Of a stretch of 41,039 nucleotides of DNA, positions 16,679 to 33,374 are shown one piece after another; the first letter of the stretch is position 1, and each line of letters starts with the position of its first letter. Source of the DNA: a phage; sequence record NC_093712.1; one strand, written 5' to 3'. The position numbers were made by a program, and so were the translations under genes. Under the pieces are notes generated by a model. It was not told where the DNA came from. It made no database searches and saw only the letters and a program-made list of their open reading frames with translations.

Positions 16679-17929
16679 TTAAAGTGCGAAAGTCACCGGG
16701 ATGTTGATTACTGGTTTAACCACCGGCATCTCGTAAACTACAGGATAGCCGAGAGCATCCGCCATATGGTCAATGATGCCGTCTTTAGCTGGCTCTCCGT
16801 TATCGTCGTATGCCTGCTGCTCCAGCGTCTTCGCTATCTCAGGGCATAAGTGGTCGTTAATCCACAGTTTACCTTTTTCCAGTGCGGTATTCACGGCTAA
16901 AACACGGTCTTTAACCGGAGGGTTGGCGGATTTAGCGCGAACATCGAAACCTGCCTGCTGGAGTAACGCAATATCTGAGATTGACGCCGAGTTGGTCTTG
17001 CGGTTCTTGCCGCTGGCGTCCGGGTAAACGACTATGCGGTGGCCCTGCGACCTCCACTTCTCAGTAATTACGCGCACGGTATCCGGTGTATCGAACAGGC
17101 CTTTCAGTTCTGCTACCGCGTGCCAGCCGTCTTTACGTTGCACATACACGGCGCTTGCGTTCTTCGTAACGTTGAAGTCCTGCCCGATGTACAACGTGTC
17201 ACCCGGTTGAATTACCTCTTTGCTGCGGTGCTTACGGCGGTCATATGCGTAATACACGCTGCCGGAGGTAAGGTTGACGAACTCACCATTCAGATACGCG
17301 TTAATCAACTGCGCCGGATAAGTCTCGGTCAGCGAACTAATGTAGTCAGGCGGCAGGAATCGCGCGTTCTCGTGTGTAGAAGCCTGCACCATCGAGTAAC
17401 TCGGCGTCGGGTTCTCTTTGAACTTGGCGTAGACGAACTTGAACCCTTCCGGTGTCGTGGTGACAGAGATGTGGTTAATTACGCCAGGAATAACAAGACG
17501 CATACGGGCCACAATTTTGTTCCACGCCAGTTCAGCTTTCTCGCGGCTCAATACATCCAGCTCATCCACGACTGCCGCAGCGATTTTGAAGCCGACGATA
17601 GAGCCTGGGTTATCCATCGAACGGCAGATAACAGTTCCGAGAACCGTCTTACCGCGAGTAACCACGACTTCTTTGTCGCCAGATTTAACCAGCACATCGA
17701 GGCCGAGCAGGTTAGCGGCTTCCTCAAATGTCGGGTAGAAGATGTCACGGATAGCCGGGTATGTCGGGCCGAAGTAACCCAGGCGCGTACCTGGATGCTT
17801 GAGCATAAACGTAAGCAGGTCAAGGCAGCCAACAAATGTCTTTCCGCTGCCGAAGCCGCCGACATATGCCTTATATTTGTTATCACAATTCAGGAACAGC
17901 GCCTGCGGTGCGGATAGCTGAATACTCAT
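16679..17929 (-). CDS. terminase large subunit
   Basis: 416 aa; Walker A GGFGSGKT near N-terminus, acidic nuclease-type C-terminal half; ATGA-coupled to small subunit. Confidence 0.85.
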   Translation of the reverse strand: MSIQLSAPQALFLNCDNKYKAYVGGFGSGKTFVGCLDLLTFMLKHPGTRLGYFGPTYPAIRDIFYPTFEEAANLLGLDVLVKSGDKEVVVTRGKTVLGTVICRSMDNPGSIVGFKIAAAVVDELDVLSREKAELAWNKIVARMRLVIPGVINHISVTTTPEGFKFVYAKFKENPTPSYSMVQASTHENARFLPPDYISSLTETYPAQLINAYLNGEFVNLTSGSVYYAYDRRKHRSKEVIQPGDTLYIGQDFNVTKNASAVYVQRKDGWHAVAELKGLFDTPDTVRVITEKWRSQGHRIVVYPDASGKNRKTNSASISDIALLQQAGFDVRAKSANPPVKDRVLAVNTALEKGKLWINDHLCPEIAKTLEQQAYDDNGEPAKDGIIDHMADALGYPVVYEMPVVKPVINIPVTFAL

Positions 17930-20000: not shown

Positions 20001-20033
20001 AAAAAAAAAATCCCGGCTGGGTCAGGGCCGGGA
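20001..20033 (-). terminator. strong rho-independent terminator
   Basis: TCCCGGC-loop-GCCGGGA hairpin followed on minus strand by T10 (A10 at 20001-20010 on plus). Confidence 0.8.
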
Positions 20034-23016: not shown

Positions 23017-23211
23017 TCACACTTCCGGCGGCTCTGGTAACGGCATCCAGTGCGACGGTTCACATACCCCCTCAACACCATCAATGTAAAAGAATTGAAA
23101 TAGCCCTTTACCTTTATGAAACCCTACCATCTGCTCTTTTGTATCAGAGCAATAAACCAAAACATCTTCATCCTTTGGCATCCGCTCACTGCACTTAATC
23201 CACTCACCCAT
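23017..23211 (-). CDS. DUF551-like small phage protein
   Basis: 64 aa with WIKCSERMP...HWMPLPEPP pattern typical of DUF551 proteins of enterobacterial phages (recalled). Confidence 0.6.
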   Translation of the reverse strand: MGEWIKCSERMPKDEDVLVYCSDTKEQMVGFHKGKGLFQFFYIDGVEGVCEPSHWMPLPEPPEV

Positions 23212-23214
23212 AAA

Positions 23215-23358
23215 TCACCTCTGATTCGCGATAAACAACACACCAGCTTTCCACGCCCGCCACGCGAGACGCGTCTTAACGTTCAGGTACTCTTTCTTCG
23301 AACCCTTGTTAACCGGCAGACCCTCGACTATAGCCCACCGTTCAAATGCTTCTCTCAT
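23215..23358 (-). CDS. hypothetical small protein (47 aa)
   Basis: Manually translated; ATGA-coupled to upstream ORF. Confidence 0.35.
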   Translation of the reverse strand: MREAFERWAIVEGLPVNKGSKKEYLNVKTRLAWRAWKAGVLFIANQR

Positions 23359-23510
23359 ACCAGAACCTCACATTCATCCCGATACACGAACAATAACGAC
23401 CCTTTGTACTCAATCATAAAACCATAATGGTTGCTGCTGAACGCCAGAAAAACATCACCTACCGAGATACCGAAATCTATAAGCCTGCGGTCAGTTATTC
23501 GGATTCTCAT
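23355..23510 (-). CDS. hypothetical small protein (51 aa)
   Basis: Manually translated ORF MRIRITDRRLIDFGISVGDVF...; starts 4 nt after upstream stop. Confidence 0.35.
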   Translation of the reverse strand: MRIRITDRRLIDFGISVGDVFLAFSSNHYGFMIEYKGSLLFVYRDECEVLV

Positions 23511-23513
23511 AGC

Positions 23514-23705
23514 TCAGTCCTCATCATCTTCTAAGTCTGGGTACACTATGAAATCTCCAACCCTCTGCAACTCCGCACCCGCCATAAAATAGCCAAGTGC
23601 TTCGGCTCTTTCGGAATCGGTTTTAAACTCAGACAAAGGATATCTTTCGTAGAACTTGTTAATTAATAACGCCTGGTCAAACTTAGTCGCATCATAATTT
23701 TTCAT
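23514..23705 (-). CDS. hypothetical small acidic protein; G12 homopolymer sits immediately 5' of its ATG (or inside an N-terminal extension to 23798)
   Basis: ATG at 23705 lies 5 nt after the homopolymer, which may serve as SD-like sequence; the longer track ORF (23514..23798) reads through the tract as RGGGVG. Confidence 0.45.
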   Translation of the reverse strand: MKNYDATKFDQALLINKFYERYPLSEFKTDSERAEALGYFMAGAELQRVGDFIVYPDLEDDED

Positions 23706-23710
23706 ACCAA

Positions 23711-23722
23711 CCCCCCCCCCCC
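23711..23722. repeat. homopolymeric tract, C12 on plus strand (G12 in the mRNA sense)
   Basis: Directly visible: ccaa cccccccccccc gcaacgcg. Confidence 0.9.
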
Positions 23723-23754
23723 GCAACGCGCACACCACATGAACGGTTAAAGTA

Positions 23755-23946
23755 TTATTCATGGCAACCTCCCTCGGAGTCGTCGGCGCGAGCATCATGA
23801 TTCGATGCCGTTTGCTCCCGCACTTCTACCATCCTTCCTACCACTGCGGCATAATACACATACCGCTTTATTGCGTAATCTTTATTACTTGTCGTCTCTG
23901 TTATGACCCCGTCGACGTATACGTCGTAAATTAATTCCCCCATCAC
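23755..23946 (-). CDS. hypothetical small protein (63 aa)
   Basis: ORF track; ATGA-type coupling with upstream ORF. Confidence 0.45.
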   Translation of the reverse strand: MMGELIYDVYVDGVITETTSNKDYAIKRYVYYAAVVGRMVEVREQTASNHDARADDSEGGCHE

Positions 23947-24125: not shown

Positions 24126-24152
24126 AACCCTCACTCCTCTGTCTCGTTTCGA

Positions 24153-24188
24153 TAAGTGAATAGTATCCTATTATGTTGGGGTGTGCAA
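24153..24188 (-). promoter_or_regulatory. early-left promoter (TTGCAC-17-TACTAT) with operator AATAG-N4-CTATT (24159-24172)
   Basis: Conserved motif; -35 at 24188..24183, -10 at 24165..24160; RBS and ATG follow ~30 nt downstream on minus strand. Confidence 0.5.
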
Positions 24189-24337
24189 GAGATTAGTTAC
24201 GTTGCCGTTGTGATTCTTTTGTTTAATGGGGTAGCGAGCGAAACGAACGTGGTGCCGGAGGCACCAAGAGTGAGTGAGTGAGCTTGCGGTTCTGACCTAC
24301 GGCAAATCAATAACTTAGATATTTAGGCGGGGAATTA

Positions 24338-24482
24338 TAATAGACTATGGCCCTTCCGAATGCGTCAGCGAGGCTCACTCCACACGTCGAGACGTGCTCG
24401 TTTCGCCTGCCGCGCACCGCGGTCGCTTGTTCATACTTCACAAGCTCAGGACGAGCTTACCATATTTCTCAGTAAAAGTCAA
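24338..24482 (-). promoter_or_regulatory. conserved promoter plus structured leader element, copy 2 (TTGACT-17-TGnTAAGCT at 24482..24454)
   Basis: Near-identical blocks to 13363-13522; hairpin CACGTC-GA-GACGTG (24373-24386) replaces GGAC-TTAC-GTCC of copy 1 at the same relative position; perfect TATAAT on plus strand at 24336-24341 is an alternative reading. Confidence 0.5.
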
Positions 24483-24589
24483 TACCAGTAGCATCTTTTG
24501 CATCTTAGTAACTTTGTGTGGTGTTTTGGTTGCTTTTACATTCCCGCTATCCTATACTCGGTTCCACCAAACAAACAGGAGATATGAAA

Positions 24590-24772
24590 ATGCCGCATTA
24601 CATGACACAGAATGAAGTAGCTGAACGTATCGGGGTGACACGTCAGACAATTAATAACTGGCTGCGCAGTGGTAAATTCCCGGATTGCTGTATTAAGGTT
24701 ATGGGTCGCCGTTTACCGGGAACATTCGACCGTAATAAAGTTGAAGCATGGATTAAGGAGAACGTGAAATGA
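24590..24772 (+). CDS. small HTH DNA-binding protein (AlpA/excisionase-like HTH)
   Basis: ATG at 24590 with AGGAG RBS (track ORF starts upstream at 24518); MTQNEVAERIGVTRQTINNWLRSGKFP is a typical HTH_17-type motif. Confidence 0.6.
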   Translation: MPHYMTQNEVAERIGVTRQTINNWLRSGKFPDCCIKVMGRRLPGTFDRNKVEAWIKENVK

Positions 24773-33253: not shown

Positions 33254-33374
33254 ACTGATTATCGCGGTACTGGCGGGATTTGCTGCCGGTGTCTACTGTC
33301 ACGAGGGTCAATACGGCATGATGGTTGCCATATTGGGCATGTTCATCGCAATTTATCTGTGGGTGCTGGAATGA
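33243..33374 (+). CDS. small membrane protein (43 aa)
   Basis: Manually found; single hydrophobic helix; start overlaps polymerase stop. Confidence 0.35.
   Translation: MPSKLIIAVLAGFAAGVYCHEGQYGMMVAILGMFIAIYLWVLE

What the first reader, a model, noticed from the sequence alone, without database searches (positions are those of the whole stretch)
23700..23725. Twelve-nucleotide G homopolymer at the start of a small early gene
A C12 run on the plus strand (G12 in the mRNA) lies either inside an ORF (encoding RGGGVG, 23514..23798) or immediately 5' of an ATG at 23705, where it would act as the Shine-Dalgarno region. Homopolymers this long are rare in phage genomes and are classic slipped-strand hypermutable sites, so tract length could switch the N-terminal extension or translation efficiency; they are also common sequencing-error sites.
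Basis: seen in the sequence. Interest (0 to 1): 0.55.

Follow-up and report, generated by a model that had tools for sequence, protein, structure and literature searches.

The report
Expanded G-run at a ribosome-binding site
A run of twelve G's in coliphage L AB-2017 is a strain-specific expansion of the short G-rich ribosome-binding site in front of a conserved 63-codon gene; it probably arose by replication slippage at a spot where length changes do little harm, so it is a minor curiosity, not a new mechanism.

Summary
There is a C12 run at + strand 23711..23722, which reads G12 in the minus-strand mRNA. It is the longest homopolymer in the genome, against about 0.001 G/C runs of this length expected by chance.

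The window is the whole genome of Escherichia phage L AB-2017, a Kagunavirus. The tract sits in a junction that is conserved across Kagunavirus. A 21-24 codon hydrophobic micro-ORF normally ends ...T-GGGGG-TTGGT-ATGA. The G5 (GGAGG in phage XY1) lies where the Shine-Dalgarno of the next gene would sit, and the micro-ORF stop overlaps that gene's ATG.

About 15 independent relatives have G5 at this site. Phage G AB-2017, the closest relative, has G6. Only phage L has G12. At G6 and G12 the degenerate micro-ORF is in frame with the conserved 63-aa gene that starts at ATG 23705. That is why the gene is annotated as 80 aa in G and 82 aa in L. At G5, G8, G11 or G14 the ancestral stop/start overlap returns.

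The core gene keeps its own ATG and a strong G-rich SD at every tract length, so length changes are tolerated.

The most likely reading is a near-neutral slippage expansion of an SD element. A functional phase switch is possible but unsupported. Tract length within a phage population could not be tested here.

Novelty is low: it is a new member of the known class of phage homopolymer repeats. Interest is about 0.22.

The parts
23711..23722 (-). G12 homopolymer in the mRNA (C12 on the + strand). It is an expanded form of the G5/GGAGG Shine-Dalgarno element of the conserved junction. In the annotated ORF it encodes part of R-G-G-G-V.
   Evidence: sequence. (G6 in phage G). (G5 or GGAGG in all other relatives). 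(anti-SD pairing -11.1 kcal/mol).
23706..23710 (-). TTGGT spacer between the G tract and the ATG of the core gene.
   Evidence: The same spacer is found in nearly all relatives that carry the junction.
23514..23705 (-). Conserved core gene of 63 codons plus stop: MKNYDATKFDQALLINKFYERYPLSEF...DLEDDED. Function unknown. Predicted as a small helical domain with an acidic tail.
   Evidence: 63-aa homologues on dozens of contigs. (PHROG of unknown function, no Pfam match). (pLDDT 88-90 over residues 31-60 of the 82-aa model).
23706..23762 (-). Degenerate remnant of the Kagunavirus hydrophobic micro-ORF: 19 codons, MNNTLTVHVVCALRGGGVG. At G12 it is in frame with the core gene. Together they form the annotated 82-aa L_46 (23514..23762).
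   Evidence: homology to VNNYPFILIVSAVYVVHALWGLV*. (L_46 annotation). (residues 1-12 and 14-21 have pLDDT below 50).
23768..23775 (-). GAGGGAGG Shine-Dalgarno for the micro-ORF start at ATG 23762, with a 5-nt spacer. It lies inside the 3' end of the upstream gene.
   Evidence: (-12.1 kcal/mol to the anti-SD). (conserved in relatives).
23755..23943 (-). Upstream small gene (homologue of G_47). Its TAA stop at 23757..23755 overlaps the micro-ORF start in the sequence ATGAATAA.
   Evidence: (phrog_30617, unknown function).
23702..23704 (-). TGA that would end the micro-ORF at tract lengths G5, G8, G11 or G14. It overlaps the core ATG as ATGA, which is the ancestral arrangement.
   Evidence: frame table. 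(relatives end exactly here).
23692..23694 (-). TGA that would end the micro-ORF at tract lengths G4, G7, G10 or G13, 13 nt into the core gene.

Best explanation
The G12 run is a lineage-specific expansion of a short G-rich Shine-Dalgarno element, most likely produced by replication slippage.

In Kagunavirus early-gene clusters, a 21-24 codon hydrophobic micro-ORF ends with ...T-GGGGG-TTGGT-ATGA. The G5 (GGAGG in one phage) is the ribosome-binding site of the next gene. The micro-ORF's TGA overlaps that gene's ATG, which gives stop/start coupling.

In phage L the micro-ORF is already shortened and degenerate, and the G5 has grown to G12 (G6 in sister phage G). At these two lengths the micro-ORF is in frame with the downstream gene. 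Ribosomes starting at ATG 23762 would make an 82-aa protein in which the tract encodes a short Gly run in a disordered N-terminal extension. Ribosomes starting at ATG 23705, recruited by the G run itself, would make the conserved 63-aa protein.

The core gene keeps its own start codon and a strong SD at every tract length, and all three frames of the micro-ORF end harmlessly. Length changes at this site are therefore tolerated, which is why the run could drift to 12.

Shown here: the tract, its position in the conserved junction, the short alleles in relatives, the consequence of each length for the reading frame, and the predicted SD pairing.

Inferred: slippage as the origin, use of both starts, and near-neutrality.
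For: (1) The tract is real in the record, and its length is not explained by base composition.

(2) The closest relative has exactly 6 fewer G, with 2 substitutions in the other 295 aligned columns.

(3) All other relatives with the junction have TGGGGG, or TGGAGG in XY1, followed by TTGGTATGA. They come from GenBank phages, IMG/VR and metagenomes and give 15 distinct micro-ORF sequences.

(4) The conserved protein starts at the equivalent of ATG 23705. The 63-aa forms sit on dozens of contigs. The 80-aa and 82-aa forms exist only in phages G and L, on one contig each, among about 15 billion proteins.

(5) The frame table shows fusion at G6/9/12/15, the ATGA overlap at G5/8/11/14, and a stop 13 nt downstream at G4/7/10/13. 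Predicted SD pairing is -9.3 kcal/mol at G5 and reaches a plateau of -11.1 from G8 onward. The upstream start scores -12.1.

(6) The N-terminal extension has pLDDT below 50, while the core domain is confident.

(7) A 72-aa database member, MWCTRCGVGMKNYD..., is the translation expected from a G4 allele of the same junction. The site therefore varies in nature (inference by back-translation).

(8) The genome was sequenced on an Illumina MiSeq at about 200x and assembled with SPAdes. A 6-nt homopolymer error is unlikely on that platform (the error profile is from my own knowledge).
Against: No reads or plaque sequences were available, so tract heterogeneity and the exact length (+/-1) are unverified. 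If the true length were 11 or 13 there would be no fusion.

The in-frame state in both G (G6) and L (G12) could reflect selection for the fused protein instead of neutrality. By chance alone an in-frame difference has a probability of about 1/3.

Use of the internal ATG in phage L is inferred from homologues and from a thermodynamic SD estimate. It has not been measured.

Only two genomes carry alleles longer than G5, and both come from one historic laboratory collection.
Confidence: 0.62

Rival explanations
1. Functional contingency locus. High-frequency slippage in the G12 tract reversibly toggles the gene between a fused 82-aa isoform (G12, G9, G15) and a separate micro-peptide plus 63-aa protein (G11, G13). 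It could also tune translation of the core gene. Either way the phage population would gain a bet-hedging mix.
For: A 12-nt G run is well above the lengths that behave as hypermutable repeats in other phages: 6 or more in T2/T4, 7-11 G in Fletchervirus (PMC12633550). Length differs between the closest relatives, and a G4 allele is inferred. Each +/-1 step changes the coding outcome.
Against: The long tract is not conserved. About 15 relatives have G5 or GGAGG. No tract length removes the start, the SD or the frame of the core gene, so there is no clear ON/OFF state. The N-terminal extension is a degenerate remnant, predicted disordered, and found in two genomes only. No phenotype is known for the protein.
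Confidence: 0.13
2. Sequencing or assembly artefact. The real tract in phage L is shorter (for example G6 as in phage G) or differs by +/-1 from 12. The 82-aa ORF would then be an artefact of the consensus.
For: Long homopolymers are classic error sites. Nextera XT library PCR can produce stutter. The exact 82-aa protein occurs on only one contig in the whole protein collection, so there is no independent assembly. The second long run in L (A10) is also longer than in G (A8).
Against: The data are MiSeq 2x250 reads at about 200x, assembled with SPAdes and checked by read re-mapping. MiSeq chemistry does not give the dark-cycle poly-G artefact, and consensus errors of 6 nt are very unlikely (own knowledge). 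All other runs in L and G are 6 or shorter and have similar length distributions, so there is no general homopolymer inflation.
Confidence: 0.12
3. Purely coding tract. The real and only product is the 82-aa L_46, starting at ATG 23762. The tract simply encodes a flexible Gly linker between a short N-terminal tag and the core domain, and the internal ATG is not used.
For: There is a strong GGAGG SD 5 nt before ATG 23762, and this start overlaps the upstream stop. Both G6 and G12 keep the frame. The core domain occurs naturally with many different N-terminal extensions, in proteins of 96-142 aa. Phage Ivi also has the micro-ORF remnant fused in frame to its downstream gene.
Against: The homologous ATG is the start of the gene in nearly all relatives, and it has the SD at the same place. 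The G run is itself a strong SD at the correct spacing. The extension is not conserved and is predicted disordered.
Confidence: 0.1
4. Structural nucleic-acid element. The G12 run forms a G-quadruplex or another RNA/DNA structure, or acts as a programmed frameshift or transcriptional-slippage site, and so regulates expression.
For: A run of 12 G can in principle form a two-tetrad quadruplex (own knowledge). A G homopolymer also lets tRNA-Gly re-pair in any frame (own knowledge).
Against: The surrounding mRNA folds no better than shuffled sequence (z = +1.52). There is no Rfam match. No promoter or terminator was found at the site. The long run is not conserved. In E. coli transcriptomes, insertions within homopolymeric runs were seen only in A/T runs, never in G/C runs (PMC5574713).
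Confidence: 0.03

Closest known systems
Hypermutable homopolymer tracts (contingency loci) in phages: Fletchervirus polyG tracts in receptor-binding protein genes (Sorensen et al. 2021, cited in PMC12633550) and homopolymer repeats of 6 nt or more in T2/T4 (PMC12633550)
   Same: It is a mononucleotide G run of comparable or greater length, in or next to a phage ORF. Length differs between close relatives, and +/-1 steps change the coding outcome.
   Different: Those tracts sit inside genes, so a frameshift switches the product off or changes a receptor-binding protein, with a demonstrated phenotype and measured heterogeneity. Here the tract lies at a gene start or SD. No length inactivates the conserved gene. 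The long allele is in a single genome, and no heterogeneity or phenotype is known.
Shine-Dalgarno plus ATGA stop/start overlap (translational coupling between adjacent bacterial or phage genes)
   Same: In relatives the site is exactly this: GGGGG or GGAGG, a 5-nt spacer, then ATGA with the upstream stop overlapping the downstream start. The G run in L retains predicted anti-SD pairing and the same spacing.
   Different: In L the SD is expanded to 12 G, and the stop/start overlap is lost because the frames are fused. It would return at G11 or G14.
Phase-variable poly-G/poly-C tracts of bacterial contingency genes (Neisseria, Haemophilus, Campylobacter)
   Same: Same sequence type and the same presumed slipped-strand mutational mechanism (own knowledge).
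   Different: The bacterial tracts are conserved features of their genes and give ON/OFF expression. This one is strain-specific and buffered by an internal start.
Conserved short boundary sequences at mosaic junctions of phage genomes (the modular-exchange concept in lambdoid phages; own knowledge)
   Same: The micro-ORF with its TGGGGGTTGGTATGA end precedes at least 8 different downstream genes in different Kagunaviruses. A near-copy of the motif (ATGGGGGTGGTATGA) flanks it on the other side in some genomes.
   Different: A role in recombination is inferred from this pattern only. It is context for the tract, not the tract itself.

Membership tests
Phage/bacterial contingency locus (hypermutable homopolymer switch) | Uninterrupted mononucleotide run long enough for frequent slippage (6-7 nt or more) | tested here: met
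   G12 at 23711..23722. Thresholds of 6 or more, and 7-11 G, are those given in PMC12633550.
Phage/bacterial contingency locus (hypermutable homopolymer switch) | A tract-length change switches expression or function of a gene (ON/OFF, or altered product with a phenotype) | tested here: inconclusive
   Length toggles between fusion and a separate micro-ORF. The core ORF, its ATG and its SD persist at every length from G4 to G16. No phenotype could be assessed.
Phage/bacterial contingency locus (hypermutable homopolymer switch) | Length polymorphism among closely related genomes | tested here: met
   G12 in L against G6 in G, with 2 substitutions in the other 295 aligned columns. G5 elsewhere. 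A G4 allele is inferred from a 72-aa variant.
Phage/bacterial contingency locus (hypermutable homopolymer switch) | High-frequency, reversible length heterogeneity within one population | not testable with these tools
Phage/bacterial contingency locus (hypermutable homopolymer switch) | Long tract maintained by selection (conserved across the lineage) | tested here: not met
   All 15 other distinct junction sequences have G5, GGAGG or less. No match to 8 or more G followed by TTGGTATGA in IMG/VR.
Shine-Dalgarno element of the downstream gene | Complementarity to the 16S rRNA 3' end, 5-10 nt upstream of a start codon | tested here: met
   Duplex energy is -11.1 kcal/mol for G8 and longer, with a 5-nt spacer to ATG 23705. 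The figure is -9.1 to -10.0 for the G5 and GGAGG alleles of relatives.
Shine-Dalgarno element of the downstream gene | Position conserved in front of the homologous start codon in relatives | tested here: met
   Examples are GGAG/GGGG/GAGG before the core gene in CR01, Ivi, PK1, fPoEco01, AVIO78A and ORH_001.
Shine-Dalgarno element of the downstream gene | Actual ribosome initiation at ATG 23705 | not testable with these tools
   Needs ribosome profiling, toeprinting or N-terminal proteomics.
ATGA stop/start translational coupling | Upstream ORF stop overlaps the downstream start | tested here: not met
   Met in relatives. In the window at G12 the upstream frame reads through into the core gene.
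Programmed frameshift / transcriptional slippage site | Conserved slippery run with a stimulatory element, and two conserved products | tested here: not met
   The long run is not conserved. There is no stable local structure and no Rfam family. Within homopolymeric runs, transcription insertions were seen only in A/T runs in E. coli (PMC5574713).
G-quadruplex | Four G-tracts able to stack into two or more tetrads, with structure formation shown | not tested
   No quadruplex predictor or assay is available here. A single G12 run could at best give a two-tetrad structure (own knowledge).

The most novel reading that the evidence does not exclude
The G tract is a genuine phage contingency locus of an unusual kind. 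It does not switch a gene off. Instead, slippage toggles a leader micro-ORF between stop/start coupling and in-frame fusion. One early gene would then yield, within a single phage population, a mixture of a free 63-aa protein and an N-terminally tagged 82-aa isoform, and perhaps different expression levels.
Probability: 0.1. Interest if true: 0.5.

Novelty: new member of a known kind. Interest (0 to 1): 0.22.

Why it matters
In practice it matters most for annotation. The 82-aa L_46 and the 80-aa G_46 are probably the conserved 63-aa protein with an accidental in-frame leader, and a one-base difference in tract length would change the gene call.

In biological terms it shows how a homopolymer can grow where selection does not resist it: in a ribosome-binding site between a decaying leader ORF and a gene that has its own start.

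If the tract turned out to be heterogeneous and selectable, it would add a siphophage example to the recently proposed phage contingency loci, and one that acts at a gene start. The evidence here does not support that stronger claim.

Tried and rejected
(1) Exact-flank scans for other alleles of the L/G-type junction in IMG/VR. The pattern GTGTGCGCGTTGC-N-TTGGTATGAAAAATTATG found nothing. G8+TTGGTATGA found nothing. The 16-mer GTGCGCGTTGCGGGGG found 7 contigs, all unrelated chance matches.

(2) A degenerate junction pattern scanned in IMG/VR, metagenomes and GTDB genomes. It gave 7, 7 and 0 loci, and every one carried G5. No further long alleles were found.

(3) Function of the protein. Only PHROG families of unknown function matched, there was no Pfam match, and the PDB sequence search gave only non-significant matches (E about 0.9). 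The AlphaFold model was of moderate quality. Foldseek against PDB found nothing, and BFVD returned only homologues of the protein itself.

(4) RNA-level explanations. The local fold is no better than shuffled sequence. There are no Rfam hits in the whole window, no promoter or terminator at the tract, and no other tandem repeat nearby.

(5) Repetition of the junction motif inside the window. Only the tract site itself matched, plus one weak match at 33360 with 3 mismatches, which is within chance expectation.

(6) PHROG search with the micro-ORF peptide. No family matched.

(7) Retrieving the contig of the 72-aa (G4) variant.

(8) A Markov simulation timed out and was replaced by the analytic expectation.

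Full report
**What is there.** The + strand carries an uninterrupted C12 at 23711..23722. On the minus strand, which is the coding strand for this cluster of small genes, the sequence reads GCGTTGC-GGGGGGGGGGGG-TTGGT-ATG. The ATG is at 23705..23703.

All C8/G8 words in the window fall in this one run. A census of homopolymers finds only one other run longer than 6, an A10 at 20001..20010. A first-order Markov model of the window, fitted with the tract masked, expects 0.0012 G/C runs of 12 or more.

**Identity of the window.** The 82-aa translation of 23514..23762 (-) is identical to 'hypothetical protein L_46 [Escherichia phage L_AB-2017]', found on a single 41039-bp contig. The window is therefore the complete genome of that Kagunavirus (Guernseyvirinae).

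Phage L is one of three siphophages of the historic Smith and Huggins K1 collection. It was sequenced with Nextera XT on an Illumina MiSeq (2x250), assembled with SPAdes at about 200x, and checked by read re-mapping (PMC5582158). That paper does not mention homopolymers.

**Comparison with the closest relative.** Only Escherichia phage G AB-2017 matches the whole locus. Aligning 301 nt around the tract shows two substitutions and one gap. The gap is exactly six G's inside the run, so G has G6 where L has G12. Phage G's gene G_46 is accordingly annotated as 243 nt, or 80 aa. Across most of the genome, L and G are about 94-97% identical.

**Where the conserved gene begins.**
- tblastn against phage genomes, and a search of 5.8 billion protein clusters, show that nearly all homologues align from residue 20 of L_46. 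That residue is the Met encoded at 23705. These homologues are 61-64 aa long: MKNYDATKFDQALLINKFYERYPLSEF...DLEDDED.
- In other phages and prophages the same domain is the C-terminal part of 96-142 aa proteins with unrelated N-termini.
- An exact-sequence look-up found the 80-aa form only in phage G and the 82-aa form only in phage L. The hypothetical 81-, 83- and 84-aa forms are absent. The 63-aa forms sit on dozens of contigs.
- The protein has no known function. It matches PHROG families annotated 'unknown function', has no Pfam match, and the sequence search of the PDB gave only non-significant matches (E about 0.9).
- In an AlphaFold model the core is helical, with pLDDT 88-90 for residues 31-60. 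Residues 1-12 and 14-21, which include the Gly run, are below 50. Foldseek found nothing informative in PDB and only the protein's own homologues in BFVD.

**What the 57 nt upstream of ATG 23705 are.** In many Kagunaviruses, the sequence GAGGGAGGTTGCC-GTG-AAT-AA... follows the same upstream gene. It opens a 21-24 codon ORF that encodes a hydrophobic peptide, for example VNNYPFILIVSAVYVVHALWGLV*.

Among 15 distinct versions, from GenBank phages, IMG/VR and metagenomes, the differences are mostly of three kinds:
- synonymous changes (TTT/TTC, ATT/ATC, TTA/TTG, GCC/GCA, AAT/AAC);
- conservative changes (V/I, I/F);
- in-frame indels.

This pattern suggests a real micro-protein gene.

The micro-ORF almost always ends ...T-GGGGG-TTGGT-ATGA. 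Its TGA overlaps the ATG of the next gene. In phage XY1 the G5 is GGAGG. The G5 is thus the Shine-Dalgarno of the downstream gene, placed 5 nt before the ATG.

That downstream gene differs from phage to phage. At least eight unrelated N-termini follow the same junction. The junction is therefore a mosaic boundary.

In L and G the micro-ORF has lost 18 nt internally, leaving MNN-TLT-VHVVCAL. Phage fBC-Eco01 has a similar short version that still ends C-GGGGG-TTGGTATGA. The likely history is G5, then G6 in phage G, then G12 in phage L.

**Consequences of tract length.**

| Tract length | Outcome for the micro-ORF |
|---|---|
| G5, G8, G11, G14 | Ends at the TGA that overlaps the core ATG (ancestral arrangement) |
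| G6, G9, G12, G15 | Reads in frame into the core gene (80, 81, 82, 83 aa) |
| G4, G7, G10, G13 | Stops 13 nt into the core gene |

At every length the core ORF, its ATG and a G-rich SD remain intact. Predicted pairing with the anti-SD is -9.3 kcal/mol at G5 and reaches a plateau of -11.1 from G8 onward. The GGAGG in front of ATG 23762 gives -12.1. Both starts therefore look competent.

A 72-aa database member begins MWCTRCGVGMKNYD.... That is the translation expected if the XY2-type junction had G4 instead of G5. This points to natural length variation at the site, but I could not fetch the contig, so it remains an inference.

**Other readings tested.**
- The local mRNA does not fold better than shuffled sequence (z = +1.52).
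- There is no Rfam family in the window.
- No promoter or terminator motif lies at the tract.
- Scans of IMG/VR, JGI metagenomes and GTDB genomes with a degenerate junction pattern found only G5 alleles. No contig with 8 or more G followed by TTGGTATGA was found.
- Transcriptional slippage is an unlikely contributor. In E. coli transcriptomes, insertions within homopolymeric runs occurred only in A/T runs (PMC5574713).

**Interpretation.** The best-supported account is that the tract is an expanded Shine-Dalgarno element at a translational-coupling junction. It probably grew by slipped-strand mispairing in a position that is buffered against frame changes.

The annotated 82-aa protein is most likely the conserved 63-aa protein plus an accidental, disordered leader. 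Both products may be made.

The suggestion of hypermutability is plausible and has indirect support: G4 (inferred), G5, G6 and G12 alleles. The idea of a functional switch is weakened in two ways. The long allele is confined to one genome, and no tract length disables the gene.

An artefact cannot be excluded without reads. A 6-nt consensus error is nonetheless unlikely for MiSeq at 200x. An error of +/-1 would change only the fused-versus-separate call.

**Comparison with what is known.** Homopolymer repeats as hypermutable sites in phages are already described:
- polyG tracts of 7-11 nt in Fletchervirus receptor-binding protein genes;
- polyG tracts in BPP-1 and in PB1-like phages;
- homopolymers of 6 nt or more in T2/T4 and in the BASEL collection (PMC12633550).

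This tract meets the sequence criterion and the between-genome polymorphism criterion. It fails the conservation criterion. The switch criterion is inconclusive, and within-population heterogeneity could not be tested.

I file it as a new member of a known kind, with low interest. The conserved micro-ORF junction, which precedes many different genes, is the more interesting by-product and is recorded under things noticed in passing.

Noticed in passing
window 23706..23775 (-). Relatives: L008 549..620, L010 425..510, L013, L024-L037.: A conserved Kagunavirus micro-ORF of 21-24 codons encodes a hydrophobic peptide (VNNYPFILIVSAVYVVHALWGLV*). Its substitution pattern looks coding: synonymous and conservative changes plus in-frame indels. 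It is unannotated, or variably annotated, in the public records, and no PHROG family matches it. Its start overlaps the upstream gene's stop, and its stop overlaps the next gene's ATG. It is degenerate in phages L, G, fBC-Eco01, K1ind1 and Ivi.
   Followed up: partly
Junction TGGGGGTTGGTATGA: window 23702..23716 (-). Loci L008, L010, L013, L014, L024-L037.: The same micro-ORF and junction are followed by at least 8 unrelated downstream genes in different phages. Some of these are homologues of window genes 23355..23510, 23215..23358 and 23017..23211. In L030/L037 a near-copy of the motif (ATGGGGGTGGTATGA) also precedes the micro-ORF. In fPoEco01 (L002) that motif joins directly to the core gene with the micro-ORF absent. 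This pattern suggests recombination between short SD-ATGA boundary repeats as a route to early-gene mosaicism.
   Followed up: partly
window 20001..20010 (+): The second-longest homopolymer is an A10. On the minus strand it is the T10 tail that follows a GC-rich hairpin (TCCCGGCC...GCCGGGA), so it looks like an intrinsic terminator. Phage G AB-2017 has A8 at the homologous site. Both long runs in L are thus longer than in G.
   Followed up: partly
Proteins P0020-P0120. Core domain = window 23514..23705 (-).: The 63-aa core domain (invariant ...KFYxRYP...F...A.GY..AGAELQ..G...) also occurs as the C-terminal module of 96-142 aa proteins. Those proteins have several unrelated N-terminal regions and come from enterobacterial phages and prophages (Klebsiella, Enterobacter, Citrobacter, Edwardsiella 'EaA2'). 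None has a Pfam match.
   Followed up: partly
window 24135..24517: A gap of about 380 nt with no convincing ORF (only overlapping 37-73 aa frames were listed) lies between the minus-strand cluster of small genes and a plus-strand HTH gene (24518..24772, the homologue of G_49). It looks like a divergent early control region. A weak match to another part of phage G (window 24339..24482 against G 17443..17584, 81% identity) was seen in the whole-genome BLAST.
   Followed up: no
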